Shown here: in pieces, positions 1-54,406 of the stretch | Numbering within the stretch: the first letter of the stretch is position 1 | Layout of the letters: every line of letters starts with the position of its first letter | Assembly: GCA_041737745.1 (NCBI GenBank) | Contig: JBGSRC010000007.1 | Location: forward strand, 92,678 to 156,677 | Direction: 5' to 3' | Length of the DNA: 64,000 bases | From: Candidatus Caenarcanales bacterium | GTDB taxonomy: Bacteria; Cyanobacteriota; Vampirovibrionia; Caenarcaniphilales; Caenarcanaceae | Program-made: the position numbers and the translations under genes | The notes under the pieces: generated by a model | Database searches by the model: none | Told to the model about the DNA's origin: nothing | The model's input: only the letters and a program-made list of their open reading frames with translations

Positions 1-1
1 G

Positions 2-1228: not shown

Positions 1229-2192
1229 CGCAGAGTAAACGATAGGCATTGGTAGCGGCTCCGATCAGCAAGTTGTCGGCGACGATCCAGAGCTCAAAGC
1301 TATTTTCTTTACTTAGGTCTTTGCGCAGGCGACCGACATGGACAAGATCCGAACCAGCCACGTCTAGAGGCATTGGGTACTCTGGATCTTGCCAGAGCTT
1401 GAGATGGCTGGAAGCTTGCAGGCAGTCACGGATTTGGCTCAGACTTGCTGGCCCTTTAAGTTCTATGTTTACTGCTTCGGAGTGGCCGACAAAGACCGGA
1501 ACACGCACTGCTGTGCAGGAGATCGCTAGGTCAGGTCTGTGGAGGATTTTGCGGCTTTCGAGCATCACTTTTTGTTCTTCTTTGGTGTAGCCGTCTTCTA
1601 AAAACTTGCTGATTTGGGGGATCACATTGAAGGCGAAGCTTTGGCGATGGTTTGGCTGGCCCTGAAGTGTTTTGGTGCTTTGTTCGCTCAGTTCGTCCAT
1701 GGCTGCTTTGCCTGCGCCGCTCACTGACTGGTAGGTATTCACTATGGCTCTTTTGATCCCAAAGGCTTTTTCGATTGGTTGGAGCGCTAGGACAAGTTGA
1801 GAGGTGGAACAATTGGGGCTTGCAACTATGCCTTTATGGCTTTTGATGTCTTCGTCATTGACACCGGACATCACGAGGGGGACTGTTTCGTCCATTCTGT
1901 AGTGGCTATCTGTATCTATCACTAGGTTGACGCCTTCTTTGAGCGCTTTCGGGATAAAGATTTCGCTCACTGAGCCATTGGCGCAAGAGACTATCAGGTC
2001 TAGCCCAACAAAGCTCGCTGTGGCTGTGTCTTCTACTGTTATTTCTGCATTGCGAAAGGTTGTTTTTTTGCCGGCAGAGCGTTCTGTACCAAAGAGACGA
2101 AGGGAGTTCAGTTTGAGGTTTGAACTTTGTATTATTTCTATTAGTTTTTGGCCTACTATGCCGGTGGCGCCGAAGATACCTAGATTTATCAT
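1191..2192 (-). CDS. asd: aspartate-semialdehyde dehydrogenase
   Basis: N-terminal GxxGxxG Rossmann motif (IFGATGIVGQ); catalytic Cys in SPNCSTSQLVLAL; C-terminal dimerisation region typical of Asd. Confidence 0.9.
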   Translation of the reverse strand: MINLGIFGATGIVGQKLIEIIQSSNLKLNSLRLFGTERSAGKKTTFRNAEITVEDTATASFVGLDLIVSCANGSVSEIFIPKALKEGVNLVIDTDSHYRMDETVPLVMSGVNDEDIKSHKGIVASPNCSTSQLVLALQPIEKAFGIKRAIVNTYQSVSGAGKAAMDELSEQSTKTLQGQPNHRQSFAFNVIPQISKFLEDGYTKEEQKVMLESRKILHRPDLAISCTAVRVPVFVGHSEAVNIELKGPASLSQIRDCLQASSHLKLWQDPEYPMPLDVAGSDLVHVGRLRKDLSKENSFELWIVADNLLIGAATNAYRLLCASLEVSYDRCPN

Positions 2193-2324
2193 TGTTTTTT
2201 CATTTTACTATCAATTATTTGGGGCAGTTGAGATCTTTCATTGGACTTCAAAATTCAAACTCCCGCTAGAAGATGAAAGAAAGCAGAAAGCTAAACAGCA
2301 TCACGATTTAGATTTATGAAACAG

Positions 2325-2348
2325 GGGGTTTGGGGGCGCTAGCCCCCA
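2325..2348. repeat. intergenic palindromic repeat module (GGGGGTTTGGGGGCGCTAGCCCCC)
   Basis: GC-clamped hairpin; near-identical copies at 14222, 18701, 31541, 48135, 54442 and 62236. Confidence 0.7.
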
Positions 2349-2389
2349 TGGAAAATACTTCCCCAACCGACAGTGATTTAAAACCCCAC

Positions 2390-3535
2390 TCAAAGCCTCG
2401 CCAAAAGCGCACGGGGAAACATGAACCTCAAAATAGACCGATAATCATCCTCAGCCAAACGAGATCGACTGACAAACTTCACAATGTTCCAAGTAGGAGC
2501 CTCACCAGCTAAATCCCCTACCCTACTCTCCATGGCTCCTAGCACCTGCACCCGCAAATCACCTTCAGCTGATTGGTAAGAATAAACCCGAAAACTAGCA
2601 CTGGGAAGCTGAAAAATATCTCTAGCCTCAGCAAGACTAAGCGCAACCTGCTCCCGATCCCCCACCAAAACCAACAAACCAGAAGCAGAATCGAGACTGA
2701 CACTCTCCAAGCGCCCCACTATCGACCCCCGAGCATACAAGAGATCGCTCAGCTGGTCAGGCTTAAAGATCCGCTCCCAAGACTGCCCCTGCAAACCGAC
2801 CATCTCGAAGGGCAAGGCGCTACCCTTCAAGGCCGAACGAGGAGGCGTGCAGAGAAGCTCTCCAGAAGGCAAAACCAATACCTCAGAGTCAGTATCCCCA
2901 ATCACCCTAGAGACTGGACCCTTTTCCCCTTTCCGCCCCAAATAGCCATATTGACTGGCCGAAAAATGATACTGACTGGCCGCCTCCTTGGCATTTCCCA
3001 AACAATACAAATACGAACGCACAATCACTGCCGCCGATTTGATCGCGCCTACAGTGTCCCCGTATTCGCTCATGCTGCCCACTAGTGAGTTGACTATATG
3101 CTCGGAGTCCAATTTATTGATGGCGATCACCCCCAAAACGGATCCCTCAAAGCTGATCTCACCTCTATACCAAAGCCCGTTTAGTTGTACTGAAGAGCCC
3201 AAATCTTGCCCCTGTAGCGTAAAAGGAAGAGCGAGTGAGGTGATTTTTTTCTCCTTGCCTTTGCTCAGTAGCGAGAAATCGTATTCGCCGAGCGGGTTTA
3301 AGCGCAGCTGGTATTTTGTGAGCGGCTGAAGGCTGAAGCGCTGTTCTTCGCTGACTAAAAAACCGGATAATTCAGTCCCAAACTCTAATCTGGCTGAATC
3401 GAAAGGCAAACGCACTTTCATTAGCCTTGGGCTATTTTCTGGGGCAAATTGCGCTAAATCGAGCTCGGCTAACACTGAGCGCGAGCCCAGCAGCACAAAG
3501 ACAAAGAGCAAAATCAAAAAAATCCTAGAAGCCAT
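2390..3535 (-). CDS. secreted protein, possible SpoIID/LytB-like domain
   Basis: Clear signal peptide (MASRIFLILLFVFVLLGSRSVLA); motif DTVGAIKSAAVIVRSYLY resembles the SpoIID/LytB EALKAQAVAARTYA signature; otherwise no family call. Confidence 0.35.
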   Translation of the reverse strand: MASRIFLILLFVFVLLGSRSVLAELDLAQFAPENSPRLMKVRLPFDSARLEFGTELSGFLVSEEQRFSLQPLTKYQLRLNPLGEYDFSLLSKGKEKKITSLALPFTLQGQDLGSSVQLNGLWYRGEISFEGSVLGVIAINKLDSEHIVNSLVGSMSEYGDTVGAIKSAAVIVRSYLYCLGNAKEAASQYHFSASQYGYLGRKGEKGPVSRVIGDTDSEVLVLPSGELLCTPPRSALKGSALPFEMVGLQGQSWERIFKPDQLSDLLYARGSIVGRLESVSLDSASGLLVLVGDREQVALSLAEARDIFQLPSASFRVYSYQSAEGDLRVQVLGAMESRVGDLAGEAPTWNIVKFVSRSRLAEDDYRSILRFMFPRALLARL

Positions 3536-3573
3536 CGGTTAGCATGTCCTATATTTCCATTTTCTCACAGGTT

Positions 3574-4596
3574 ATGAGCAACCCCGCCCGCATTCTGGTG
3601 ATCAGACATCGTTTTTTGGGCGATACGATCCTCTCTGTGCCATTTTTGCGCGCATTGCGCCGGCTCTATCCGGAAGCGCAGATAGCAGTCCTAGTCTCAG
3701 AGTTCAGCGGCCAGCTCCTCCAAAACAATCCCTATATTGATGAGCTGATCTGCTTCGATAATACTGACTTCCACCGTTACGAGAAAGCCAGCCAACCCAA
3801 AAACTTCTGGCAGGCCGTGCTTGACTTGCGGGCCCGTCGCTTTGACCGAGTGTATATCCTCAAACGCTCTTTTTCCAGTGCTCTGATGAGCTTCTTGGCT
3901 GGGATCCCAGAGCGGATCGGTTTTGATACTGAGGCTAGAGGTTTTTTGCTCACTGAGCGTATTAGCTTTAATTCTAAGAGACATGAAGCGCTCAATTTTT
4001 TGGCTCATTTGGAGCTTTCACCGAGCCTAGGAGAGCTTTCGGATATTGCTTTTTGGCCAACAAAAACCGAAAGCGAAAAAGCTTGCGCACAGCTAGCTAA
4101 TCTGACGGGACGAAAAATCATCCTTCACGCTCCCTCAGCTCATCCACTGAAGCTTTGGAGCGTCGAGCATTGGGCTAAACTAGCCTTGGCTCTCGGTGAG
4201 AGAGGCTTTCAGCTGATCTTTTCCGGTGCGCCTAGTGATCTGGAATATTACGCGCAGATCGAGGCTCTGATGACTCCCCAAAAGCCTGCGCTTAACCTGT
4301 GCTCTCTAGACAATACTCTCCGCGAAAATGTCGCTCTTTACGCCCAGTGCGAACTGATGATTGCGGTGGATTCTGGCCCTTTGCATCTGGCTGCTGCTAC
4401 AGGGATACCAGTCATAGCTCTCTTTGGGCCTACCGATCCGGCTCGTTGGTCTCCCTTGGCAAAAAAACAAAAAATACTGACCCTTGATTTGACTTGCCGT
4501 CCTTGCAACCTCAAGCCGACTTGCCAAAACCGGGAATGCTTGACTGAGCTTAGCCCTGAGCTGGTTTTGCAAGAAGCGCTTGGGCTGCTCGGATGA
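3574..4596 (+). CDS. glycosyltransferase family 9 (ADP-heptose:LPS heptosyltransferase)
   Basis: N-terminal RILVIRHRFLGDTILSVPFLRAL and C-terminal DSGPLHLAAATGIPVIALFGPTDP are GT9 hallmarks. The ORF track starts at 3544, but homology suggests Met at 3574. Confidence 0.75.
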   Translation: MSNPARILVIRHRFLGDTILSVPFLRALRRLYPEAQIAVLVSEFSGQLLQNNPYIDELICFDNTDFHRYEKASQPKNFWQAVLDLRARRFDRVYILKRSFSSALMSFLAGIPERIGFDTEARGFLLTERISFNSKRHEALNFLAHLELSPSLGELSDIAFWPTKTESEKACAQLANLTGRKIILHAPSAHPLKLWSVEHWAKLALALGERGFQLIFSGAPSDLEYYAQIEALMTPQKPALNLCSLDNTLRENVALYAQCELMIAVDSGPLHLAAATGIPVIALFGPTDPARWSPLAKKQKILTLDLTCRPCNLKPTCQNRECLTELSPELVLQEALGLLG

Positions 4597-5575
4597 CGGC
4601 CTCTGGCTCAAGCCAGCTTAGACAGACCGGTGTGGCACAGCTAGTACTTCTTCGCGCCCACAAGCAAGGCTGGCAGATTAGTTTTTCCATGATCCGGACA
4701 ACTCTTAAATATTCACTGGCAAAGGGCGGCAAGAGCTCGGCCGAGTCAGTAGCAGCAAAGAGGGCAACAGTAGGCGTACCGGCGGCAAGGGCTAGATGCA
4801 TTGGTCCTGAGTCCGGACAGATGAAAAGACAAGCTTCACGGATCAAAGCTAGTAGATCGCTAGCGTTATGTTTGCGTCCTTGCCAGTCTAGAAAGTTTGG
4901 ATTGTTTTCGATTAGACTTTCGGGCTTGAGCTTTTGGTCATCGGGGCCAGCGATCAAAATTATTTTCTGTTCGGGATACTGAAGGCACAAAGCAGAGATC
5001 AGCTCTAGCCAAAAAGCGGGCTGAGGGCTTTTCAAGATGTTTTTGCGAACGCTGATCGCGCTTACACCCGGATGAATGAGAATATATTTTTCCTCGGTCT
5101 TTGTTTGCAGGGCAAGCCTAAATTCTGGCCTAGTGAGACTCGCTGGCTTGACACCTAGCGGCGCAAAGAGATCTGCGAGCCATTCTCCCGCATAACGATT
5201 TTTTCTATTGAGTGGAACAGGGTCTGTTAGCAGAAAAGCCAGAGTATTCTTGAAACCAACACGGCGCTTAGCCCCACTGAACCAAAGCACTAAAGTTGCT
5301 AGAAAGCCTCCCCCAGAAGCGATACAGGTCTCATAGCCCCTGATCAGGTCTAGCAGTTGCACTAGACTTCTAGGGCCAAGTTTGCCCTTGAAATCGAATT
5401 GCTTGACCCCGAAACCGAGTGGCGTCAAGAGTTCGTCAGAGCCTATGTAAGCACGCTTCTCGACTAGAAGATCGATCTGAGCAGCAGTTTCATGTTCTCT
5501 GAGAGCCAAAAGTGCAGGCAAGAATATAATCACATCGCCCAAGCCTCCCGGATGGACGACTAGGATTCGTTTCAC
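4550..5575 (-). CDS. glycosyltransferase family 9 (second heptosyltransferase)
   Basis: MKRILVVHPGGLGDVIIFLPALLAL...DSGPMHLALAAGTPTVALF; converges on and overlaps the previous GT9 gene by 47 nt. Confidence 0.75.
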   Translation of the reverse strand: MKRILVVHPGGLGDVIIFLPALLALREHETAAQIDLLVEKRAYIGSDELLTPLGFGVKQFDFKGKLGPRSLVQLLDLIRGYETCIASGGGFLATLVLWFSGAKRRVGFKNTLAFLLTDPVPLNRKNRYAGEWLADLFAPLGVKPASLTRPEFRLALQTKTEEKYILIHPGVSAISVRKNILKSPQPAFWLELISALCLQYPEQKIILIAGPDDQKLKPESLIENNPNFLDWQGRKHNASDLLALIREACLFICPDSGPMHLALAAGTPTVALFAATDSAELLPPFASEYLRVVRIMEKLICQPCLWARRSTSCATPVCLSWLEPEAVIRAAQALLAKPAQG

Positions 5576-6693
5576 AGCTTAAAAAGATTGCGTGGATCGA
5601 TCGGAACCGGCTTGGCCTCGAAGAAACTATAGGGAGTCAAGGTCACTTGCACGCCCGCAATGGCATTGGCTGCCTCTGAGAGCACTGGTCCGAGCACTAG
5701 CCTGCCGCCGCCTCTGATCGCTGGATTTTTTAGTAAGAGCACCCTAGCGCTGATCGTTTTGTCGTTCGGCAGAAAAACGTTGGGGGCGCTGGCCGAGAAC
5801 TCAAACAAATCGTCGTCTAGAAGGCGCAGAACATAGCCAGCTGGAATGCGTTCTTCTAGTAAGACCAGCACAACACTATTGGGGTTTTGCACGCTCACCG
5901 GCACAAAGAGTTGTCTAAAATCACCCTTTGGGGGCAGCTTGAGAAAGATGGTCGCTTCTTCGATTTTGGCTAGGTCTTGGAAGTTTTCGGTGGGAGTCTG
6001 TCTACGTCTATTGCGTCTCTCGCCTTCTAGGACTGTTTTCCCGAGAGATTTGATGTAAAAGCCACCGGGCTTAGCAATCTGGCTAGCATATTTTTTTGTT
6101 TGATCGAGGCTGCTAGCATCGGTGAGACTTAGGCTAGAGAAACCTGCAGTGGAGTCGTTGAGCTTTTCGGTGAATTTGTCATAGACCAGAGGCTCGGGCC
6201 AGTTGACACTGTAGCTGGGTGTATTCTTTGCGTTTGCGCTAGGCTCAGCGGTCACGGCCTGCTGGTAGAGAGTAGAGTTTGGGTAGCTTAGGACTGTCTG
6301 CTCTTCAGGCTGGAGCGTGTTGGTTGTTGTTTTGACTTTGTCTGTGCTGCTAGCAGTTGCGTTCAGTCGAACTTTCACCTTGACGTTTAGCTCGGCTGGT
6401 AGAGGGCTGCCGTCTTTGGAGATCAAGCTTAGACCGGCTAGATTGCCGCCCTTATCTTTTTCGATTTTTGGAAGATAGTTATTGAAGAAAATATCTTCGG
6501 AACGGGCGGAATAGAGCTCTAAAGCTTGGTCAGTGACACTCAGCGGAACAAAGATGCTCTTCAGGCCAGATGGTATGTTCTGGACTTGGACGGCCATCTC
6601 TTTGGCGTCAAGCGGCCATGCCAGAGCGGGCGGCAACGAGCAGATCAAGAGTGAAGTTAAAATTAACGGTAATAGAAAAAAATTAGCTTTCAT
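5572..6693 (-). CDS. secreted hypothetical protein in LPS-core locus
   Basis: Signal peptide MKANFFLLPLILTSLLICSLPPALA; stop overlaps the start of the downstream GT9 gene (ATGA), which implies co-transcription. Confidence 0.5.
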   Translation of the reverse strand: MKANFFLLPLILTSLLICSLPPALAWPLDAKEMAVQVQNIPSGLKSIFVPLSVTDQALELYSARSEDIFFNNYLPKIEKDKGGNLAGLSLISKDGSPLPAELNVKVKVRLNATASSTDKVKTTTNTLQPEEQTVLSYPNSTLYQQAVTAEPSANAKNTPSYSVNWPEPLVYDKFTEKLNDSTAGFSSLSLTDASSLDQTKKYASQIAKPGGFYIKSLGKTVLEGERRNRRRQTPTENFQDLAKIEEATIFLKLPPKGDFRQLFVPVSVQNPNSVVLVLLEERIPAGYVLRLLDDDLFEFSASAPNVFLPNDKTISARVLLLKNPAIRGGGRLVLGPVLSEAANAIAGVQVTLTPYSFFEAKPVPIDPRNLFKL

Positions 6694-7648
6694 GCCAGCA
6701 CCTCATCCAATAGAAAATTTAGCAATAAATACGCTCAAACTTGGTACGCGCCGTTCACCTTTAGCGCTCAAGCAAGCCCAGATCGTGGCCGCTAAGCTCT
6801 CTCAAGCGCTGAAGATATCTTGTGAGATCGTCGGCTTTGAGACCAAGGGGGATTTGGTGTTAGAAAAGCCTTTGCATACTATCGGGAGCAAGGGGCTCTT
6901 TACCGCTGAGCTGGAGCAAGCGCTGCTGGCTGGAAGTATCGATCTGGCTTTGCATTGTCTGAAAGATTTGCCGACAGAGGAGAACAGAGACTTGCCCTTG
7001 ATCGCTCTTGGCTTAAGGGAGAGTGCACACGATCTATTGGTGCTGAGCGAAGGGTCTTTGCGCTCAGGTCACTTGAAGCTGGCTGATTTGCCTGCTGGTA
7101 GTCGAGTTGGGACAAGCAGCCTTCGGCGCAGCGCGCAGCTTGCTCACGCTTATCCAGCCCTGCTGGCGGTCAATATTCGGGGCAATGTCGGCACTAGACT
7201 AGCGAAGCTCCAAGATCCAGCACAGGATCTTAGCGCCTTGATTTTGGCTGAGGCTGGTCTTAGTCGTTTGGGTTTGTGTGATGGAAGTCAATGCCAGCTT
7301 GATTTGCTGGAGTTTACACCGGCACCCGGTCAAGGAGCATTGGCTTTGCAGGCAAGTGCTAGTCTGGATCCGCTTTTGGCTGCTAGGCTAGCTGCTGTCC
7401 TCGAAGAGCCGAGCGAGAAGATCTGTTTGCTAGTTGAGAGGGCTTTCTTGGCTGGTACTGGGGGCGGCTGTCAGACGCCTTTAGGGGCTCACGCTCTAGT
7501 CAGTAGCACCGATCAAATCTCGCTCCAAGTTTTTCTAGCTGGGCTCAGTGATGGTGCTGTGATCCAGAGTGAGTATGTCTTTGAGCGGGAAAATGCTCCA
7601 GATAGGGCTTATGAGTTGGGGTCAAGCCTCAGATCTCAGATCGCTTAG
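6692..7648 (+). CDS. hemC: porphobilinogen deaminase (hydroxymethylbilane synthase)
   Basis: LKLGTRRSPLALKQAQ N-terminal signature and C-terminal cofactor-binding Cys region (GGGCQTPLGAHA). Start reassigned to the ATG at 6692, because the longer ORF would overlap the upstream divergent gene. Confidence 0.85.
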   Translation: MPAPHPIENLAINTLKLGTRRSPLALKQAQIVAAKLSQALKISCEIVGFETKGDLVLEKPLHTIGSKGLFTAELEQALLAGSIDLALHCLKDLPTEENRDLPLIALGLRESAHDLLVLSEGSLRSGHLKLADLPAGSRVGTSSLRRSAQLAHAYPALLAVNIRGNVGTRLAKLQDPAQDLSALILAEAGLSRLGLCDGSQCQLDLLEFTPAPGQGALALQASASLDPLLAARLAAVLEEPSEKICLLVERAFLAGTGGGCQTPLGAHALVSSTDQISLQVFLAGLSDGAVIQSEYVFERENAPDRAYELGSSLRSQIA

Positions 7649-8572
7649 TTCGAGCAGAGCATAGATTGTATCGAGATGAGGGGTAGGCAACCCAAGCCGT
7701 CTGCTCAAGTCCGCTAAATCCCCCCAAAGGGGCTGCAACTCAAGAGCTCGCCCCGCTAAAATATCTTCCCGCGTCGAAGTGCTGATAGTCCCTAAAGCGT
7801 CAGTGAGAGCCAATTGTTCTTCGATCGCTTCTTTGGGCAAATTGATTCCAGCCATTTGCGCTAATTGCCAGACCTCTAGCATCAAAGCGCTAGTGAGGGC
7901 CAAGGCTCTGGGGCTTCTATAAATATTTCCTGTCTTGCCCCTACTGAGGGCCGTGATCGCGTTGAAGGGGATATTCCATAAGAGCTTTTCCCAGATCTTG
8001 AAGTCTAGATCGCTGACCGTTGAGGCTGGAGAGCCAGCTTTGGCCAAAAGATCGACTAAGGCTTTCGCTAGAGGCGGCTTGTCTGAAACATAAAAACTAT
8101 CTTCCCCGACGAACTCTAGCTCATGAGCGCTGAGAGCATGGACTGAGATATTCATCACTGCTCGCCAAACGCGCTCAAGCCCAAAGGCTCTTTGCAGAGG
8201 GATTTCTGGGCACAAACCGTTTTGCAGACAGACAAACTGCGTGCTCTGGGGCAGGTCTGCTTCAGCTAGATTCTTGGATACTTGGGTATTTGCGGTGGCT
8301 TTGGTGGCGATCAAGACAAGCTCTGGTGGGTTCAGTCCAGATAGCTTGTCGCTAGAATAAACATTTGGCTTGCCCTGCCAGAGTGTTTTCCTGCTTGTAT
8401 CTAGAATGCTGAGACCCAGATTGCCGAAACTTGCTGTCCGCTCAGGACGCAAGATGAAGCTCACTTCCGCTCCTGCTCGGAGTAGTTGACTGCCATAAAA
8501 CCCCCCAATAGCTCCCAGCCCGTAAACCCAAACCTTCAAATCAGCTCGCAGCCCAACGATCGCCAGCATCAC
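7622..8572 (-). CDS. 2-dehydropantoate 2-reductase family (ApbA/PanE-like) oxidoreductase
   Basis: N-terminal Rossmann fold (VWVYGLGAIGGFYGSQL) and overall ApbA/PanE layout; substrate specificity not inferable. Confidence 0.55.
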   Translation of the reverse strand: MMLAIVGLRADLKVWVYGLGAIGGFYGSQLLRAGAEVSFILRPERTASFGNLGLSILDTSRKTLWQGKPNVYSSDKLSGLNPPELVLIATKATANTQVSKNLAEADLPQSTQFVCLQNGLCPEIPLQRAFGLERVWRAVMNISVHALSAHELEFVGEDSFYVSDKPPLAKALVDLLAKAGSPASTVSDLDFKIWEKLLWNIPFNAITALSRGKTGNIYRSPRALALTSALMLEVWQLAQMAGINLPKEAIEEQLALTDALGTISTSTREDILAGRALELQPLWGDLADLSRRLGLPTPHLDTIYALLELSDLRSEA

Positions 8573-9176
8573 CGAGACCGGGCAAGATGTACTTTTTGGC
8601 GCTCAGCTCGCGGTCAAGTGCGGCTGTATAAATATCGACATCGGGATGAAGCGCACTCAAAGAGGCAACACCTTCGGGGCTAGCAATCAGGCAGACTAAG
8701 CTGATCTTGGCTGGCTTGAATTTTTTAATTTCTGTGATAGCCTCAGCGGCTGTGCCACCGGTTGCGAGCATCGGATCGAGGAGGATCACTGTCGATCCGC
8801 TCTGCACAGGCAAGTTCAAATAATAGGTCTCTGGTTTAGCCGTTAACTCGTCTCGTCTCTGGCCACTGAAACCGACAGTGCAAGAAGGGAAGAGGGTGAG
8901 CGCTGTGCTGAGCATTGCTAGGCCAGCCCGCAAAATAGGAATGAAGACAGGTTGGCTTGTCAGCCTAAGTCCCTCAGTCTCTTCCATGGGGGTTTTGAGC
9001 ACATAGCTCTCTAGCGGAAGCTTGCTAGTAGCTTCGAGGATCAAAATATTTGTGACGCTACTCAGAGCCAGCCTCAAGCTAGCTAAAGCTGTTTCTTGGT
9101 CTCTGATCTGGCCGAGATAGTGGGCGATCAGGGCATGCTCGACGACTAGAAGAGACTGACTCACACCCGCTCTCCG
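8541..9176 (-). CDS. upp: uracil phosphoribosyltransferase
   Basis: PRPP-binding motif VILLDPMLATGGTAAEA; N-terminal region aligns with Upp from VSQSLLVVEH, so the start is probably the GTG at 9176 rather than the ATG at 9263, which lies inside leuA. Confidence 0.75.
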   Translation of the reverse strand, partial: RRAGVSQSLLVVEHALIAHYLGQIRDQETALASLRLALSSVTNILILEATSKLPLESYVLKTPMEETEGLRLTSQPVFIPILRAGLAMLSTALTLFPSCTVGFSGQRRDELTAKPETYYLNLPVQSGSTVILLDPMLATGGTAAEAITEIKKFKPAKISLVCLIASPEGVASLSALHPDVDIYTAALDRELSAKKYILPGLGDAGDRWAAS

Positions 9177-10720
9177 ATCACTAGTTGGTCTTCGGTTACT
9201 TGGGTGCTGGTCGCTTGCAGTTGACAGACACGGTTGAGGGCATTGAGGTAAGCTTTGGCGCAAGCTTTCAGGATGTCAGTGTCTGTCCCATAGCCGCTGA
9301 AGACGCGGTTTTGGTATTGGACGCGGATGGTGACTTCGCCTTGGGCGTCTATGCCTTCGGTGACTGAGCGTACCGAAAACTCAATCAGTTCATTGGGGAT
9401 GCCCACTAGTTCTTTGATCGCCTGATAGACGGCGTCAACAGGACCTGTCCCGAGAGCTGATCCTCTGAGACTGCTTTTGTCTTCATGGCGAAACAGTGAC
9501 ACTGAAGCAGTTGGCAAGCCAGACCCACAGGCAATGAGCAAACTCTCTAAACTGAAAAATGTCTCTGTGACCGTTTCACGTTGTCTTTCGTCGATCAGCG
9601 AGATCAGATCGCGGTCAGCTACGTCTTTCTTCTTGTCGGCTAGGTCTTTAAAGGCTTTATAGGCTAGTTCCAGTTCGTCTTCGGTGAGGGCATAGCCCAG
9701 CTCGGCTAGGCGGTTTTTGAGGGCATGCTTGCCGGAACGGGGACCTAGCGGTAGCTTATTGGTTTTCAGGCCGATCTCGGCTGGATCGATGATCTCGTAG
9801 GTGCTGCGATGTTTGAGGACGCCGTCTTGGTGTATGCCCGATTCGTGGGCAAAGGCGTTTGCGCCCACTATTGCTTTGTTCTTCTGAACGGCAAAACCAG
9901 TGAGGTTGCTCACTAGATGGCTGACTCTCGCTATCTGGGTACTATCGACGTCGCTTCTCAGCTTTAAGAGATCTCCTCGTTTTTTGAGGATCATCACGAT
10001 CTCTTCTAGGGCGCAGTTGCCGGCTCGCTCTCCTAGCCCGTTGATGGTGCATTCGACTTGGCGGGCTCCAGCAGAAAGGGCAGCTAGTGAGTTGGCTACA
10101 GCTAGCCCCAGATCGTTATGACAATGCACTGAGATCACAATCTGCGGATCTATCTGTGCTTTGAGAAAGACGATCAGTGAACTGAACTCATCTGGAGTGA
10201 TAAAGCCGACTGTGTCGGGAATGTTGATAGTTTTAGCGCCAGCTTGAATGGCTGTCTGCACTAGCTCTAACAGAAAGTGACGGTCTGCTCGTCCGGCATC
10301 TTCGGGGGAAAATTCGATATCTGAGACTAGACTAGCGGCGAAGCCGACCATTTTTGCGGTCTTTTCGAGGCATTGTGCTTTGGTGATTCTTAGTTTGTGC
10401 TCTAGATGAATATCAGACGAGCCGATGAAGGTATGAATGCGCGGTTTTTTTGCTTTTTGGAGGGCTTTGTAGGCCGTGTTTATATCGGCTTCGGTGGCAC
10501 GGGCTAGAGCGCAGATTGTGGTGTCTGCTATTTCGCTAGCTATTTGTTCTACGGCGGCAAAGTCACCGGGGCTGGAGTAGGGAAAGCCCGCTTCGATGAT
10601 GTCAACGTTGAGTTTAGCTAGAGCGTGAGCTATTTGTAGTTTTTCGGTACGGTTGAGGGTTGCTCCGGGAGATTGTTCTCCGTCTCTGAGTGTTGTATCG
10701 AAGATTAGGACTTTGTCCAT
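9161..10720 (-). CDS. leuA: 2-isopropylmalate synthase
   Basis: MDKVLIFDTTLRDGEQSPGATL...HCHNDLGLAVANSLAA, plus the C-terminal LeuA regulatory domain. Confidence 0.9.
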   Translation of the reverse strand: MDKVLIFDTTLRDGEQSPGATLNRTEKLQIAHALAKLNVDIIEAGFPYSSPGDFAAVEQIASEIADTTICALARATEADINTAYKALQKAKKPRIHTFIGSSDIHLEHKLRITKAQCLEKTAKMVGFAASLVSDIEFSPEDAGRADRHFLLELVQTAIQAGAKTINIPDTVGFITPDEFSSLIVFLKAQIDPQIVISVHCHNDLGLAVANSLAALSAGARQVECTINGLGERAGNCALEEIVMILKKRGDLLKLRSDVDSTQIARVSHLVSNLTGFAVQKNKAIVGANAFAHESGIHQDGVLKHRSTYEIIDPAEIGLKTNKLPLGPRSGKHALKNRLAELGYALTEDELELAYKAFKDLADKKKDVADRDLISLIDERQRETVTETFFSLESLLIACGSGLPTASVSLFRHEDKSSLRGSALGTGPVDAVYQAIKELVGIPNELIEFSVRSVTEGIDAQGEVTIRVQYQNRVFSGYGTDTDILKACAKAYLNALNRVCQLQATSTQVTEDQLVIGERV

Positions 10721-10784
10721 GCTCTATTTAGTTTGTCAGTAATTCTTCCATTCTCTCACAGAGTGCTTCCGTCACAAAAGAAGC

Positions 10785-11423
10785 TTAAGCGCAGTTGTTT
10801 TGAAGCAGCTCAGCAGTCTCTTCACCAAAAAGCTTGGCAGAGATCCCAGACCAAAGATCAGTCCCAACGATCGAGGATGAAGGCTCAAGACTATAACGTA
10901 GAGCATCACGCAAACGAACAAAAGCTAAATAATTTGCCCGATCGGCAGCAGATGAACCTAAAAGTTCATTAATGCGTTCAAGTTCTTCAAGCGGTCTTTC
11001 TTGATCGAGAAAGCTACTGAGTCCAAGTATGTACTTGCTCTTGGCGTCTAAGTCCTGAAAAGCTGGATCCAGACTGAAAAACTGGGGAGAATAGTGACTA
11101 TCGAGCTTGGCCGAAATACCAGCCCAAAGGTCTTCAGACTCTAGAGCCTCCGGCAACTGAGCGCAAAGCGGTAAAACACGGTCGAGAGGACTGACTAGAT
11201 CTAGCTTGCCTTGAAGCTCAGGCCAAAGATCGAGGGACTCCAAAGCGCTGGGCAAAGGAGCAAGAGTCTGGAGGGCTTGGTCTAGTTGCTGCTCTGAGGT
11301 GGTCAATGAGCCTTCGAGGCTGTCCCAAAGATCGTATTGGGGGCAATTGGCGAAGGCTTTTTGCAAGGCTTGATTGAGCAGGTCACCCTCTTGGTGATTG
11401 GTGGATTGTCCGTTTGAGTTCAT
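10785..11423 (-). CDS. putative cytoplasmic anti-sigma factor with four internal DLW-x-(G)ISAKL repeats
   Basis: Lies immediately downstream of the ECF sigma gene with a 4-nt start/stop overlap. The motifs DLWDSLEGSL, DLWPELQGKL, DLWAGISAKL and DLWSGISAKL resemble the RskA/ChrR-type anti-sigma N-terminal motif, here repeated four times. No TM helix. Confidence 0.4.
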   Translation of the reverse strand: MNSNGQSTNHQEGDLLNQALQKAFANCPQYDLWDSLEGSLTTSEQQLDQALQTLAPLPSALESLDLWPELQGKLDLVSPLDRVLPLCAQLPEALESEDLWAGISAKLDSHYSPQFFSLDPAFQDLDAKSKYILGLSSFLDQERPLEELERINELLGSSAADRANYLAFVRLRDALRYSLEPSSSIVGTDLWSGISAKLFGEETAELLQNNCA

Positions 11424-12070
11424 ATCGAATAGCTGGAAGTGGCTGTGGTGTAGATTTTGCTATTTGGGTTTTTGGGGGCTTTATCCACATAATTTTTGAG
11501 CATTATTTGGAGGCGGGCCCGAGCTCTTGCTATTCGAGATTTGACAGTTCCGAGCTCACAATTGAGCGTTTCGGCAATCTCTTCATAACTTAGCCCTTGT
11601 AACTCTCTTAGAACAATCACCACTCTAAATTGTTCCGGCAATTGATCCATTGCTCTACGGATAAATCCAGCTAGTTCATTGTTGAGTACCAGCTCGTCTG
11701 GACCTTGCGCTAGATCGGGGAATTCTCTGACCTGTTCTTCATCTTCATCGATGGTCTTGTCGAGCGAGACCGTTTCTAGCTTGCGGGGACGTTTACGCAG
11801 CTCATCGTAAAATAGATTGACGGTGATTTGATTCAGCCAAGCCCGAAAAGTCTTGGGATTACGCAGATTTCCGATATAACGATAAACCCGTATAAACACT
11901 TCTTGAGCCATGTCAGGGAGATTTTCCCATTCAGGGGCCAGCTGATAGAGCATGGAGATAACGATTTTTTGGTAACGACGCACAAGTGCTTCTAAGGCTT
12001 GGCGATCGCCGGTTTGGCAATGTTCTACTAATTCATAATCGGCGAGTTCTAAATATTCGGCTTTATTCAA
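11420..12070 (-). CDS. ECF-type RNA polymerase sigma-70 factor
   Basis: Region 2 (FIRVYRYIGNLRNPKTFRAWLNQITVNLFYDELRKR) and region 4 HTH (LRELQGLSYEEIAETLNCELGTVKSRIARAR). Confidence 0.85.
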   Translation of the reverse strand: MNKAEYLELADYELVEHCQTGDRQALEALVRRYQKIVISMLYQLAPEWENLPDMAQEVFIRVYRYIGNLRNPKTFRAWLNQITVNLFYDELRKRPRKLETVSLDKTIDEDEEQVREFPDLAQGPDELVLNNELAGFIRRAMDQLPEQFRVVIVLRELQGLSYEEIAETLNCELGTVKSRIARARARLQIMLKNYVDKAPKNPNSKIYTTATSSYSI

Positions 12071-13884: not shown

Positions 13885-13960
13885 TGGTTGTTTAGAGAAG
13901 AGCCCAATAGTTTGTTTATCCTACTACTTGAAGTTGTTTGTCTTACTGGAGGTTATTTGA

Positions 13961-14280
13961 GTTAAAAGCTATGAGAGGGCTAGCGCCCCCTCAAACTCCC
14001 CCAGCTTGAGCTTTCAGCGTTTTTTCTTGAGGGGCTTTGCCTATTCAAGATTCAAGGAGGCGTTGGGGAGGGGCTCTTAGGCTCACTTTCAGTTACTTGA
14101 AATATTGACCATGAGAGGGCTTTCTTTGTCGCTAGACTCTTGCTACGCAGCCCTCAAACTCCCCCAGATTGAGCTTTCAGCGTTTTCTTGAGGGGGGCTT
14201 TGCCTGTTCAAGATTGAAGGGGGTTTGGGGGCGAAGCCCCCCATTATTAACTCAACTCAAACAACCTCCAGTGAGCAATC
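13961..14280. repeat. tandemly duplicated ~140-bp intergenic repeat unit (two copies) built from GAGGGC..GCCCTCAAACTCCCCC, GCTTGAGCTTTCAGCG and GGGGGTTTGGGGGCG modules
   Basis: Copy 1 at 13969-14110 and copy 2 at 14111-14275 align over most of their length. Copy 2 carries a 29-bp insertion (tttctttgtcgctagactcttgctacgca) inside the hairpin loop. Confidence 0.7.
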
Positions 14281-14288
14281 AAGCTTGC

Positions 14289-14978: not shown

Positions 14979-14980
14979 AC

Positions 14981-15766: not shown

Positions 15767-15845
15767 TCTAATAGTTTAGATCACCTGTGAGAACTAGCTC
15801 TTACCTCATTAGCAATACTTCCCTGACCTACAGTGAGTACTAAGC

Positions 15846-16565: not shown

Positions 16566-16630
16566 TATTTATTCTAAAGAGCAATTATTAAGCTTCCATT
16601 CACGACCTGCTAGCTTATGATAGAACTCTT

Positions 16631-51543: not shown

Positions 51544-52317
51544 TCACTTGAAGAAATAAAGCTGCCCCAGCAAAACCTGTACAATCCGCCCCTGCAAAAA
51601 AGGCAACAAAAATAACAAAATAAATATCCCAATAATCGGCTTAGCCGAACGACTCAACTCAAAAGCATTGACCTGCTGAGCCGAACGCTGCATCAGAGCT
51701 AAAACGAAATCGACAAACACCAAAATAATCAAAAAAGGCGCCGACAAAACTACCCCTAAACCTAAAATATCACCGAATAATTTGATAATTTCCGGAAAAG
51801 TGATCCCCAATGCCCCAAAATCAGTGCCGTTTAGAGGAAATGTCCCAAAGCTCTTTTTGAGACCAATCAAACAAATCTCCAAACAACCAGCCTGCAAAAA
51901 CAAAACAAGTGCATAATTCCGAAACAATAAATTCATCAGCGTAGTAGGGCCAGTGCTCGGATTGACTATAGAAGCAAAATTGATCCCAAGTTGGAAATCA
52001 AGAATCTCACCGAGTGCCTCAATCACACAAAGTCCAAGCTTAGAAAGAAAACCCAGAAACAAACCAACAGCCAAATTCAAAACCAAAGCAAAAGGATAAT
52101 TGAACCCCGGAGTATTGGGATCAAAAGGCGTAACTACTGATGAAAGCATCAGGGAGAGGCTAAAGACCATGGCAACCTTGATCAGGTTCGGCAAATTCTT
52201 CTCGCCTAAAGCCGGCGCCTCGACAATGAAGCCCAAGACACGTGCCAAAATGAGTAGAAAATTACCCAACCATAAATCAAAAATCAACCTAAAATCTGAG
52301 GCGGAGAATAGCTCCAT
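51544..52317 (-). CDS. fliR: FliR/SctT-family type III (flagellar or injectisome) export apparatus membrane protein, solitary
   Basis: Aligns along its whole length with FliR, e.g. GEILDFQLGINFASIVNP (compare E. coli GEIIGLQMGLSFATFVDP). No fliP/fliQ/flhB neighbours. Confidence 0.7.
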   Translation of the reverse strand: MELFSASDFRLIFDLWLGNFLLILARVLGFIVEAPALGEKNLPNLIKVAMVFSLSLMLSSVVTPFDPNTPGFNYPFALVLNLAVGLFLGFLSKLGLCVIEALGEILDFQLGINFASIVNPSTGPTTLMNLLFRNYALVLFLQAGCLEICLIGLKKSFGTFPLNGTDFGALGITFPEIIKLFGDILGLGVVLSAPFLIILVFVDFVLALMQRSAQQVNAFELSRSAKPIIGIFILLFLLPFLQGRIVQVLLGQLYFFK

Positions 52318-54406
52318 GATTAAAAATTATATCGATCCAAACAGCGTTTTCCCCTTTCCTCTCGACGATTTCCAAAAGCAAGCGATCGAAAAGCTGATAG
52401 TCGGCGAAAGCGTTTTGGTCTGCGCCCCCACTGGTAGCGGCAAGACGGTGATAGCCGAATATGCAATCCATAGCGCCCTCGCCAACAACAAACTAGTCAC
52501 CTACACCACCCCGCTCAAAGCACTCAGTAACCAGAAATATTTCGATCTCTGTAGACTCTTTGGCTCAGAAAACGTCGGTCTGATCACCGGTGACCAGCAA
52601 ATCAACCGAACAGCGCCAGTCTTAGTCCTGACTACCGAGATCTTTAGAAACATTCTCTATAAGCCTGAGCAAGAAAAAGAAATGCTGCGCGATATGCAGT
52701 TTGTGGTGCTAGACGAGTGTCACTACATGAAAGACAAAGAGCGTGGCACCGTCTGGGAGGAGATTTTGATCAATGCTCCACCAAACATTCAGTTGGTAGC
52801 TCTCTCGGCCACTGTCGGCAATCCTAAGCGTATTGTCAGTTGGATGAATGAAGTGCATGGCAAAACTGCTTTGATTTTAAGTGATTTTCGGCCTGTGCCT
52901 TTGCGCTTTTTCTTCTTTGGGGCTGGAGGGTTGAAGCCGCTCCTCACACCACAAGGCAAAGCTAATCCGAGTCTGATTCCGCATAGCAATAAGCTCAAAC
53001 GTAGCAACCGTGATTTTCCGCATGGCACAGAAGTAATAGCCGCTCTCGCTAAGCGCGAAATGCTCCCCTGTATTTATTTTTTGTTTAGCCGCAAGGGCTG
53101 TGACGCTGCTCTCGATTTTCTGGCCTCTTCTTCGCTGCAACTGCTCAGTCCAGATGAACAGCGCCAGTTGAACCTCGAGCTAGACGAACTAGTAGAAGAA
53201 CATCCTTGGCTCAAAGATCATAAGCACCTCAGAGCCCTCCGCAAGGGGATGGCCGCTCATCATGCCGGTATGCTTCCGCTCTTGAAAAGCATTGTCGAGG
53301 TTTTCTTCCAACGAAATATGCTCAAAGTGGTCTTTGCCACTGAGACACTGGCTGCTGGGATCAATATGCCCGCTCGCACAGTCGTGCTTTCCCAGATCTC
53401 TAAGCGCAGTACTTACGGTCACCGGACGCTTACGGCCTCAGAGTTTATGCAGATGTGTGGGCGGGCTGGACGAAGGGGAATGGACGAGGTCGGCTACGCC
53501 GTAACGCTCGAGACTCCTTACGAAGGAGTCCTAGAAGTCAGTACGCTGGCTCTTTCGCCTCCAGAAGATTTGATCAGTTCATTTAGTCCATCCTATGAGA
53601 TGGTGTTGAACCTAGCGGCTCGGCATGACTGGAAGACTTGCAAGAGCACTGTGCAGCGTAGCTTTGCCCGTTTTGATTTGCAAGGACAAATTAAAAGTCT
53701 GCAAAACGATCTGATTCAAATCGGTGAATCAAAGAAGAAAGAAGCTTCGGCCGAGAAGCGCAAGGCGAAAAAAGCGAGCAAAATCTCCAAAGATCTGGCT
53801 CGACTAGAAGAAGTGCCTTGGCGTGACTTTGAACTTGCCGGTCATCTGCTCCAAGATCTTGATTATTTGGATGATGATCATAAGCCCACCAAGAAAGGCC
53901 TAGCGGCGGCTGACTTACGCACTGACAATATACTGCTCACCTCTGAGGTGCTTTTTTCCGGTTGTCTAAACGATCTGACTGTTCCTGAGCTAGCGGGCAT
54001 GGCCTGTGCTCTGGTCAACATAGAGCTACGAGGCGATCAGTGGCGGCGTACTGAGCAGTTTGTGCTCGGTGAAGATTTGCTTTCTGAGGCTGTAGCGGAA
54101 GTCTATAGCCAAATCAGGGAGCTTTCGGCGGCGCAGGTGGATCTGGAGATCAACTGTCCTTTACCTTTCAATCCCAACTCAATCAATCTTGGGATTACTT
54201 GGTCATTGGCTGAGACTTGGGAGGATTTCAAGCTTAGTTTTGAGCAGGAGGATGGTGATCTAGTGCGTGTTTTAAAGCAGGCAGGAGATTTACTGAGACA
54301 ATTTGAGGAATTTCCGGCTAGTTCTAGCCAGTTTAGGCGTAATGCCGGTAATGCTAGAGCTCTAATGCTTAGGCCACCGGTGAAAGACGAGCTCCAGCAA
54401 AGCTGA
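52316..54406 (+). CDS. Ski2-like superfamily 2 DEAD/DEAH-box helicase
   Basis: Q-motif/motif I FPLDDFQKQAIEKL...CAPTGSGKT, motif II VLDECHYM, motif VI QMCGRAGRRG. Start set at MIKNYI (52316), because the upstream ORF-track extension overlaps fliR. Confidence 0.7.
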   Translation: MIKNYIDPNSVFPFPLDDFQKQAIEKLIVGESVLVCAPTGSGKTVIAEYAIHSALANNKLVTYTTPLKALSNQKYFDLCRLFGSENVGLITGDQQINRTAPVLVLTTEIFRNILYKPEQEKEMLRDMQFVVLDECHYMKDKERGTVWEEILINAPPNIQLVALSATVGNPKRIVSWMNEVHGKTALILSDFRPVPLRFFFFGAGGLKPLLTPQGKANPSLIPHSNKLKRSNRDFPHGTEVIAALAKREMLPCIYFLFSRKGCDAALDFLASSSLQLLSPDEQRQLNLELDELVEEHPWLKDHKHLRALRKGMAAHHAGMLPLLKSIVEVFFQRNMLKVVFATETLAAGINMPARTVVLSQISKRSTYGHRTLTASEFMQMCGRAGRRGMDEVGYAVTLETPYEGVLEVSTLALSPPEDLISSFSPSYEMVLNLAARHDWKTCKSTVQRSFARFDLQGQIKSLQNDLIQIGESKKKEASAEKRKAKKASKISKDLARLEEVPWRDFELAGHLLQDLDYLDDDHKPTKKGLAAADLRTDNILLTSEVLFSGCLNDLTVPELAGMACALVNIELRGDQWRRTEQFVLGEDLLSEAVAEVYSQIRELSAAQVDLEINCPLPFNPNSINLGITWSLAETWEDFKLSFEQEDGDLVRVLKQAGDLLRQFEEFPASSSQFRRNAGNARALMLRPPVKDELQQS

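What the first reader, a model, noticed from the sequence alone, without database searches (positions are those of the whole stretch)
6691..6694. Divergent gene pairs with overlapping or abutting start codons (shared CATG), leaving no intergenic promoter space
At 6691-6694 the tetranucleotide CATG supplies both the minus-strand ATG of the secreted-protein gene and the plus-strand ATG of hemC. Exactly the same arrangement occurs at 52315-52318 for fliR (minus) and the Ski2-like helicase (plus). A third head-to-head pair (2390-3535, minus; GT9, plus) has starts only 8-38 nt apart. In all three, the promoter and any 5' UTR must lie inside the neighbour's coding sequence, or the mRNAs are leaderless. 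Two identical CATG overlaps in 64 kb is unlikely to be an annotation accident, since both start assignments are supported by homology or signal-peptide position.
Basis: seen in the sequence. Interest (0 to 1): 0.55.

Follow-up and report, generated by a model that had tools for sequence, protein, structure and literature searches.

The report
Head-to-head genes sharing CATG start
Two pairs of back-to-back genes in this compact, poorly studied bacterial genome really do begin on the same four bases (CATG), a rare but already documented arrangement that automatic annotation has mis-called by cutting one gene of each pair short.

Summary
CATG at 6691-6694 and at 52315-52318 supplies the ATG of a minus-strand gene and of a plus-strand gene, a 2-nt 5'-5' overlap. 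All four starts are supported independently:
- hemC has no other canonical start before its essential GTRxSxLA motif.
- The neighbouring secreted protein needs ATG 6693 to keep the signal peptide that 9 of 10 remote homologues carry.
- FliR matches homologues and solved FliR structures in N-terminal length.
- The helicase has no later start before its Q motif.

Public gene calls truncate one partner of each pair, because Prodigal forbids 5'-5' overlaps. The third pair is probably 38 nt apart, possibly 8.

The organism is a deep relative of Vampirovibrionia (Melainabacteria). Its genome is tightly packed and makes little use of Shine-Dalgarno (SD) sequences.

Promoters must therefore lie in the partner's first codons. 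Those stretches are A+T-rich, and each carries a -10-like hexamer 8-28 nt before the relevant ATG. Two genes have an SD-like motif and so probably have a leader. fliR may be nearly leaderless. I found no window-wide leaderless signature.

Short divergent overlaps are known but rare in bacteria. This is a real, ordinary-to-modestly-interesting example, useful mainly as an annotation warning. No new mechanism is shown.

The parts
6691..6694 (.). Shared CATG: ATG of the secreted-protein gene (minus, 6693-6691) and ATG of hemC (plus, 6692-6694); 2-nt overlap
5572..6693 (-). Gene for a 373-aa secreted protein of unknown function with signal peptide MKANFFLLPLILTSLLICSLPPALA; no Pfam family; remote homologues in Caenarcaniphilales-type MAGs
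   Evidence: The database version P0006 starts at M33 (6597) and lacks the signal peptide
6692..7648 (+). hemC (porphobilinogen deaminase / hydroxymethylbilane synthase), 318 aa; lone plus-strand gene between minus-strand genes; its 3' end overlaps the next minus-strand gene (7622-8572) by 27 nt
   Evidence: The NCBI version P0007 starts at GTG 6785 and loses the GTRxSxLA motif
6699..6704 (-). SD-like GAGGTG, 5 nt upstream of the minus-strand ATG, inside hemC codons 3-5
   Evidence: motif present; its use is inferred
6716..6721 (-). -10-like TAAATT, 22 nt upstream of the secreted-protein ATG, inside hemC codons 9-10 (predicted promoter element)
   Evidence: consensus match only
6658..6663 (+). 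-10-like TAAAAT, 28 nt upstream of the hemC ATG, inside the signal-peptide codons of the partner (predicted promoter element). The partner's first 40 nt are 22.5% G+C, the lowest of 61 genes
   Evidence: consensus match only
52315..52318 (.). Shared CATG: ATG of fliR (minus, 52317-52315) and ATG of the Ski2-like helicase (plus, 52316-52318)
51544..52317 (-). fliR (Bac_export_1), 257 aa; lone minus-strand gene between plus-strand genes (recR upstream, helicase divergent)
   Evidence: The database version P0001 starts at TTG 52287
52316..54406 (+). Ski2-like DEAD/DSHCT helicase, 696 aa
52326..52331 (-). Perfect TATAAT, 8 nt upstream of the fliR ATG, inside helicase codons 4-6 (predicted -10; would give a 0-2 nt leader). 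L001 has TATCAT at the same 8-nt spacing
52298..52306 (+). SD-like GAGGCGGAG (GGAG 9 nt upstream of the helicase ATG), inside fliR codons 4-7
52290..52295 (+). -10-like TAAAAT, 20 nt upstream of the helicase ATG, inside fliR codons
2390..3535 (-). Signal-peptide protein with a weak SpoIID match; head-to-head partner of GT9
3574..4596 (+). GT9 heptosyltransferase. Start at 3574 is favoured (38-nt gap), 3544 is possible (8-nt gap). Its 3' end overlaps the second GT9 gene (4550-5575, minus) by 47 nt

Best explanation
These are genuine 2-nt head-to-head overlaps of start codons. They occur in a tightly packed, SD-poor genome of a deep Vampirovibrionia-like bacterium. hemC and fliR (and also GT9) are single genes lying on the opposite strand between co-directional neighbours, and the spacer at their 5' ends has shrunk to nothing. 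CATG is the tightest packing in which neither protein constrains the other beyond the initiator Met.

Each gene is transcribed from its own promoter, and the two promoters face each other. Each lies in the A+T-rich first 10-60 bp of the partner's coding sequence, so the two mRNAs are complementary over their first roughly 15-40 nt.

Predicted layout from consensus matches only:
- The secreted-protein and helicase mRNAs have leaders of about 13-15 nt carrying an SD-like motif.
- hemC has a leader of about 20 nt that is A-rich and lacks an SD.
- fliR has a 0-2 nt leader and is nearly leaderless.

Shown here: the overlaps, the four start sites, the composition and the motifs. Inferred: promoter positions, leader lengths, and any mutual interference between the two polymerases.
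For: Starts:
- hemC.
- Secreted protein.
- FliR.
- Helicase.

Predicted mRNA structure around the four CATG starts is weak, -3.6 to -7.5 kcal/mol. That matches true starts in this window (mean -7.6) and not internal sites (mean -12.5). The rival database starts are strongly structured: M33 -21.3 and hemC V32 -20.6.

The database truncations are explained by Prodigal's rule that 5' ends may not overlap. Two pipelines truncated different partners of the hemC pair.

Compact genome:
- About 90% coding.
- Many 4-nt co-directional overlaps.
- Divergent gaps with a median near 70 nt.

Low SD use: 12 of 61 genes carry an SD core, against 5.8 expected.

The first 40 nt of the partner CDSs have upstream-like composition. 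The secreted-protein gene is 22.5% G+C there, the lowest of 61 genes, and the helicase is 32.5%.

Each of the four genes has a TANNNT hexamer 8-28 nt upstream, inside the partner's CDS. The background is 0.011 per position, so about 0.33 per 36-nt window, and about 0.012 for all four.

The divergent fliR-helicase arrangement is conserved in L001 and L002, with spacers of 8-65 and about 136 nt. The window therefore represents spacer loss.

The literature reports that divergent overlaps exist but are rare, and that they arise by 5' elongation onto a new start.
Against: - There are no transcript or protein data, so promoter and leader assignments rest on weak consensus matches.
- The full -35/-10 scan found nothing at any of the three sites.
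- There is no positional enrichment of -10-like hexamers over 41 first-in-unit genes.
- fliR has an in-frame TTG at codon 11 with only moderately worse context (-10.3 kcal/mol), so that overlap is less certain than the hemC one.
- The structure scores for the two partners of a pair are not independent, since they come from the same DNA.
- The secreted-protein gene and the helicase could instead be read through from same-strand genes further upstream (the gene at 7622-8572 and its upstream neighbours; recR), across the antisense of hemC or fliR.
Confidence: 0.7

Rival explanations
1. Start-site artefact. In each pair one partner really starts downstream, as the public annotations have it (fliR at TTG 52287; secreted protein at ATG 6597 or hemC at GTG 6785). 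A normal 28-95 nt intergenic region would then exist.
For: Public calls P0001 (247 aa), P0006 (341 aa) and P0007 (287 aa) use those starts. C precedes the start codon in 22 of 61 genes here, so an ATG on the opposite strand next to a true start is common. For fliR, the TTG start leaves a viable-looking protein, and its context is only moderately structured.
Against: Prodigal cannot output 5'-5' overlaps, so those calls are not independent evidence. Two pipelines disagree on which hemC-pair partner to cut. hemC from GTG 6785 lacks the GTRxSxLA motif, which all 118 motif-bearing homologues retain. The secreted protein from M33 lacks the signal peptide present in 9 of 10 homologues, and M33 aligns to an internal I/V. 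Both alternative starts sit in strongly structured RNA, at the 3rd-5th percentile of internal sites. FliR from TTG would be 5-9 residues shorter at the N-terminus than solved FliRs and than its closest homologues.
Confidence: 0.12
2. Leaderless organism. Leaderless or near-leaderless mRNAs are the norm in this lineage, and all four genes start transcription at or within 2 nt of their ATG. The transcripts would then overlap by only about 2-6 nt, and CATG would be a preferred junction, analogous to ATGA for co-directional genes.
For: SD use is low. All four genes use ATG. fliR has TATAAT 8 nt upstream, and L001 has TATCAT at the same spacing. Divergent overlaps are enriched in leaderless-rich taxa: archaea, M. 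tuberculosis and Caulobacter. Two junctions lie at exactly -2.
Against: There is no positional peak of -10-like hexamers 5-9 nt upstream across 41 first-in-unit genes. Only 13 of 61 genes have TANNNT at 5-9 nt. The secreted-protein gene and the helicase have SD-like motifs at proper spacing and no -10-like hexamer at 5-9 nt. No literature links leaderless mRNAs with Melainabacteria.
Confidence: 0.13
3. Read-through expression. The SD-bearing partners have no promoter of their own. The secreted-protein gene would be transcribed from the minus-strand genes upstream of hemC (7622-10720), and the helicase from the plus-strand genes ending with recR, through the antisense of hemC or fliR. Only hemC and fliR would need embedded promoters.
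For: hemC and fliR are each lone genes inverted between co-directional neighbours. No terminator-like sites lie in 6400-7000 or 52000-52650.
Against: It requires 0.8-1.0 kb antisense transcripts across essential genes. The recR neighbour is not conserved next to fliR in L002. -10-like hexamers are present 20-22 nt upstream of both genes.
Confidence: 0.05

Closest known systems
Short divergent (head-to-head, 5'-5') gene overlaps in prokaryotes (Fukuda 2003; Johnson & Chisholm 2004; Lillo & Krakauer 2007, PMC2174442; PairWise Neighbours database, PMC2716372)
   Same: Two protein-coding genes lie on opposite strands with their 5' ends overlapping by a few nucleotides. This class is described as strongly under-represented in bacteria because initiation signals must be encoded inside the partner, and as arising by 5' elongation onto a new start codon.
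   Different: Nothing essential differs. This is an instance in an unstudied lineage, with both starts checked by homology rather than taken from annotation. Two of about 12 divergent junctions is a higher local frequency than the literature average.
Closely juxtaposed divergent promoters and leaderless mRNAs in Mycobacterium tuberculosis and Deinococcus (PMC3898074, PMC4007540)
   Same: Divergent genes with very short or no spacing; TSS at or next to the start codon; promoter elements inside the neighbouring gene.
   Different: No TSS data exist here. Only fliR shows a -10 at leaderless spacing, and two of the four genes carry SD-like motifs. The window shows no genome-style leaderless signature.
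Symmetrical bidirectional promoters (Warman et al., bioRxiv 10.1101/2020.01.31.928960)
   Same: One short A+T-rich stretch serves transcription in both directions, using -10 elements on opposite strands.
   Different: In that class the two TSSs lie 7-25 bp apart, back-to-back, with the -10 elements between them. At a CATG overlap each TSS must lie at or beyond the partner's start codon. The transcripts therefore cross, and the promoters face each other. The back-to-back geometry is excluded by the sequence itself for the two CATG pairs. It could apply to the 38-76 nt spacers elsewhere in the window.
ATGA / TGATG overlaps of co-directional genes (translational coupling; PMC10666635)
   Same: A discrete, minimal overlap state that recurs when a genome is tightly packed. 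Several 4-nt overlaps occur in this window.
   Different: Co-directional overlaps couple translation on one mRNA. Head-to-head overlaps involve two different mRNAs and cannot couple translation.
Excludons / overlapping divergent 5' UTRs (Listeria; from my own knowledge, not checked here)
   Same: Divergent transcription units whose 5' regions are complementary, with the potential for mutual antisense or polymerase interference.
   Different: Excludons involve long (hundreds of nt) antisense overlaps with demonstrated reciprocal regulation. Here the predicted overlap is roughly 15-40 nt, and no regulation is shown.

Membership tests
Divergent (5'-5') overlapping gene pair | Two real protein-coding genes on opposite strands | tested here: met
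   Pfam matches for hemC, fliR and the helicase. The secreted protein has 14 homologues by full HMMER search.
Divergent (5'-5') overlapping gene pair | The start codons themselves overlap, with both starts supported independently of the gene caller | tested here: met
   hemC pair: (strong). fliR pair: (good; fliR TTG codon 11 is not fully excluded).
Divergent (5'-5') overlapping gene pair | Both proteins are actually made from those starts | not testable with these tools
   Needs N-terminal proteomics or ribosome profiling.
Leaderless mRNA | Transcription start at the A of the start codon (or within 0-5 nt) | not testable with these tools
   No transcriptome data are available for this organism.
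Leaderless mRNA | A -10 element about 6-9 nt upstream of the start codon, and no SD | tested here: inconclusive
   fliR: TATAAT 8 nt upstream and no SD (met). hemC: no SD, and only AAAAAT at 8 nt, with a better TAAAAT at 28 nt. Secreted protein and helicase: SD-like motif present, with a -10-like hexamer at 20-22 nt (not met).
Leaderless mRNA | Genome-wide positional peak of -10 signal just upstream of start codons (the signature of leaderless-rich genomes) | tested here: not met
   No peak over 41 first-in-unit genes in the window. The sample is small.
Symmetrical bidirectional promoter (Warman type) | [quoted passage not shown] | tested here: not met
   With overlapping start codons each TSS must lie at or past the partner's ATG, so the transcripts cross. 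The -10-like hexamers are 36-58 bp apart and face each other.

The most novel reading that the evidence does not exclude
This deep Vampirovibrionia-like lineage may routinely place face-to-face promoters inside coding sequence and use very short or absent leaders. CATG would then be a selected, recurrent zero-spacer junction for divergent genes, the head-to-head counterpart of ATGA. Polymerase or antisense interference would couple the partners' expression, for example the conserved fliR-helicase pair. Because Prodigal-type callers forbid such overlaps, the class would be systematically invisible in MAG annotations.
Probability: 0.15. Interest if true: 0.5.

Novelty: new member of a known kind. 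Interest (0 to 1): 0.27.

Why it matters
1. Annotation. The public gene models for this organism are wrong at both sites. hemC is truncated past an essential motif, the secreted protein has lost its signal peptide, and fliR is shortened. The cause is that the standard gene caller forbids 5'-5' overlaps. In compact, SD-poor MAGs this may be a systematic error that removes signal peptides and N-terminal motifs.

2. Biology. The pairs are clean natural cases in which promoter, leader and the first codons of a neighbour are encoded in the same 40-60 bp. If TSS data become available for Vampirovibrionia, they would show how SD-independent initiation and embedded promoters coexist with coding constraints.

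3. Limits. Nothing here points to a new molecular mechanism.

Tried and rejected
- Looking for the source genome and close relatives. The genome-contig scan with hemC gave only a distant Anaerolinea locus. The metagenome scan with the fliR alignment gave only FliRs of 34% identity or less, none with the helicase adjacent. Exact look-ups of the full-length window proteins failed because the databases hold truncated versions.
- Conservation of hemC / secreted-protein adjacency. It is not conserved in L084 or L085, so no comparative test of that overlap was possible.
- Full sigma-70 promoter and terminator scans at the three sites found no promoter, and only one terminator-like site (3422-3434, at the third pair), which is no more than the shuffles give.
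- Rfam and tRNA scans of the window found nothing, so no RNA element explains the sites.
- Positional -10 and SD profiles over all genes showed no leaderless peak and only weak SD enrichment.
- I considered that CATG might be avoided genome-wide, for instance through a restriction system. The single-base expectation suggested so (143 observed against 249 expected), but the Markov expectation does not (ratio 1.11). I rejected the idea.
- The background rate of -2 junctions under naive ORF calling in 354 kb of other loci was 0 of 33. The sample is too small and the calls too crude to weigh much.
- I considered a shared longer motif around the two CATGs (TAGCT 3-4 nt upstream in both). It lies in different reading frames, and I judged it to be chance.
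Full report
**Observation**

The window reads ...gctttCATGccagc... at 6691-6694 and ...agctcCATGattaa... at 52315-52318.
- ORF listing and Pfam put a 373-aa protein with no family on the minus strand, ending (that is, starting) at 6693. hemC (Porphobil_deam plus its C-terminal domain) is on the plus strand from 6692.
- fliR (Bac_export_1) is on the minus strand, starting at 52317. A Ski2-like DEAD/DSHCT helicase is on the plus strand from 52316.
- In both cases the two ATGs share their A and T.
- The third pair has a signal-peptide protein with a weak SpoIID match at 2390-3535 (minus) and a GT9 heptosyltransferase on the plus strand. The minus ATG is at 3535 and the plus ATGs are at 3544 and 3574.

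The closest database entries are 100% identical but shorter:
- fliR is held as 247 aa, starting at TTG codon 11 (P0001).
- The secreted protein is held as 341 aa, starting at Met33 (P0006).
- hemC is held as 287 aa, starting at GTG Val32 (P0007).

In the Logan assembly of the same organism (L086, identical to window 1-16597), hemC is called full length and the secreted protein is cut. In the NCBI set hemC is cut. [quoted passage not shown] These calls are therefore forced by the algorithm and are not evidence.

Independent evidence favours the CATG starts:
1. *hemC.* There is no ATG, GTG or TTG between 6692 and the conserved GTRxSxLA motif. Of 120 homologues scanned, 118 show that motif within the first 120 residues, 3-44 residues after their own start. 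The window has 17 residues before it. The GTG start would delete the motif.
2. *Secreted protein.* A full HMMER search found 14 remote homologues. In the alignment, 9 of 10 have an N-terminal hydrophobic signal peptide followed by PKEIxxTVxNVP, which matches window AKEMAVQVQNIP. Met33 therefore aligns with an internal I/V.
3. *FliR.* The closest homologues (45% and 38% identity) begin MD/ME and are 3 residues shorter than the ATG form. Window residue 15 aligns with Salmonella FliR residue 11. The TTG form would be 5-9 residues short. This is the least certain of the four starts.
4. *Helicase.* The next in-frame start lies beyond the Q motif. The homologues in L001 and L002 begin within a few residues of the same IDP/LDP...F motif, and their frames are closed just upstream.
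5. *Predicted RNA structure over -30..+33.* In this window it is weak at gene starts (mean -7.6 kcal/mol) and stronger at internal sites (mean -12.5). The four CATG starts score -3.6 to -7.5. The database alternatives score -21.3 (Met33), -20.6 (Val32) and -10.3 (fliR TTG).

For GT9, residue 16 aligns with residue 2 of solved heptosyltransferases. The 3574 start, giving a 38-nt gap, is therefore more likely.

**Context**
- The best hemC hits are only 44-47% identical and include Vampirovibrionales and Caenarcaniphilales MAGs.
- A homologue of the secreted protein sits on a 1,152,868-bp contig, the same length as the longest contig listed for the hemC that NCBI names Caenarcaniphilales. I take these to be the same contig.
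- The organism is therefore a deep Vampirovibrionia (Melainabacteria)-like bacterium with few sequenced relatives.
- The window is about 90% coding, with many 4-nt co-directional overlaps.
- Its roughly 12 divergent junctions have gaps of -2, -2, 8/38, 16/112, 50, 65, 72, 76, 83, 103, 117 and 284 nt.
- SD use is low: 12 of 61 genes have a GGAG/GAGG/AGGA core at -20..-4, against 5.8 expected.
- hemC, fliR and GT9 are each lone genes on the opposite strand between co-directional neighbours. hemC and GT9 also overlap their 3' neighbours, by 27 and 47 nt.
- The divergent fliR-helicase arrangement is conserved in two relatives (helicase about 52% identical). Their spacers are 8-65 nt (L001) and about 136 nt (L002). 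The window therefore shows the endpoint of spacer loss.

**Mechanism**

If both starts of a pair are real, each gene's promoter must lie in the partner's coding sequence. The only alternative is read-through from far upstream across the antisense of the partner.

The first 40 nt of the partner genes have the composition of upstream regions (upstream mean 39% G+C):
- Secreted-protein gene: 22.5%, the lowest of 61 genes.
- Helicase: 32.5%.

Each of the four genes has a TANNNT hexamer inside the partner's coding sequence:
- hemC: TAAAAT at 6658-6663, 28 nt upstream.
- Secreted protein: TAAATT at 6716-6721 (minus), 22 nt upstream.
- fliR: TATAAT at 52326-52331 (minus), 8 nt upstream.
- Helicase: TAAAAT at 52290-52295, 20 nt upstream.

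The background rate is 0.011 per position, so all four having one within 5-40 nt has a probability of about 0.01 (my estimate).

The secreted-protein gene and the helicase also have SD-like motifs, GAGGTG 5 nt upstream and GGAG 9 nt upstream, embedded in hemC codons 3-5 and fliR codons 4-7. hemC and fliR have none.

The most economical model is two promoters facing each other, with transcripts that cross by roughly 15-40 nt. Predicted leaders are:
- About 13-15 nt for the two SD-bearing genes.
- About 20 nt, A-rich, for hemC.
- 0-2 nt for fliR. L001 has TATCAT at the same 8-nt spacing.

These are consensus-level predictions. The stricter -35/-10 scan found nothing. There is no window-wide positional -10 peak of the kind expected in leaderless-rich genomes.

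The symmetrical back-to-back bidirectional promoter, with TSSs 7-25 bp apart, is geometrically excluded for the CATG pairs.

**Comparison with what is known**

Divergent overlaps are a documented class.
- They are strongly under-represented in bacteria, which is attributed to the need to encode initiation signals in the partner.
- They are more frequent in archaea, M. tuberculosis and Caulobacter.
- They are thought to arise by 5' elongation onto a new start codon.
- Closely juxtaposed divergent promoters are common in M. tuberculosis.

The present case meets the defining features of that class. It does not demonstrably belong to the leaderless class. No paper in the library links leaderless mRNAs with Melainabacteria.

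**Verdict**

Its suggested leaderless reading is at best true for fliR. Two exact -2 junctions among about 12 is more than a smooth gap distribution predicts (roughly p of 0.02 or less, my estimate), which hints that CATG is a discrete 'closest packing' state. With n = 2 this is only a lead.

The practical finding is that standard gene callers cannot represent such pairs. Here they produced a hemC without its essential N-terminal motif, a secreted protein without its signal peptide, and a shortened FliR.

I score novelty as a new member of a known kind, and interest as low to moderate.

Noticed in passing
window 51544-54406; L001 1830-4765; L002 1789-4765: An orphan fliR, not in a fliPQR-flhB operon, lies head-to-head with a Ski2-like DSHCT helicase. 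The arrangement is conserved in two distant relatives (FliR 38-45% and helicase about 52% identical). In both relatives a protein containing a FliQ domain (Bac_export_3) lies about 3 kb away. The reason for the conserved synteny is unknown.
   Followed up: partly
window 6785 (hemC GTG), 6597 (secreted-protein Met33), 52287 (fliR TTG): The public protein entries for this organism (P0007, P0006, P0001) are N-terminally truncated at these codons. Two pipelines truncated different partners of the hemC pair. The cause is the Prodigal rule against 5'-5' overlaps.
   Followed up: yes
window 6692-7648 with 7622-8572; 3574-4596 with 4550-5575: There are convergent 3'-3' overlaps of 27 nt (hemC with an ApbA/ketopantoate-reductase-like gene) and 47 nt (two GT9 heptosyltransferase genes). 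hemC is therefore overlapped at both ends.
   Followed up: no
window 12067-13884 (minus): A 605-aa protein combines a Glycos_transf_2 domain with LpxK (tetraacyldisaccharide 4'-kinase), according to the Pfam hits listed for locus L086. This is an unusual fusion for a lipid A pathway enzyme.
   Followed up: no
window 45025-47922 (minus): A 965-aa protein with an N-terminal signal-peptide-like sequence (MNKLLFHLFIITSLLFSAGLGAIA) has no Pfam match. It is followed by the longest divergent spacer in the window (284 nt).
   Followed up: no
window 5572-6693 and homologues P0127-P0139; L085 667-4101: The secreted protein belongs to a small, uncharacterised family (14 hits among 1.84 billion representatives) that appears restricted to Vampirovibrionia-type MAGs. 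In L085 its homologue lies head-to-head with flhA (FHIPEP), 219 nt apart. That is a second association of this region's genes with flagellar export components.
   Followed up: partly
L002 3925-4000: In the 136-nt fliR-helicase spacer of L002, an AAGGAG is followed 7 nt later by an ATG that opens a short ORF (MNFISCRSIVSRPMRSGITYG...). The ORF runs into the fliR start in another frame. It could be an upstream ORF or a sequencing frameshift.
   Followed up: no
window 36797-37537 (pdxJ, minus) and 37588-38961 (tig, plus); 55740-56687 (dus, minus) and 56704/56800-57735 (plus): These are further very tight head-to-head pairs. pdxJ and trigger factor are about 50 nt apart once tig is started at its homology-supported ATG; the longest ORF would give a 7-nt overlap. 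dus and an unknown gene are 16-112 nt apart. Short divergent spacers are general in this genome.
   Followed up: partly
window 48953-49783 (plus) versus 48207-49073 (dapF): The longest ORF of the gene after dapF overlaps dapF by 121 nt and has no Pfam match. Its true start is probably further downstream.
   Followed up: no
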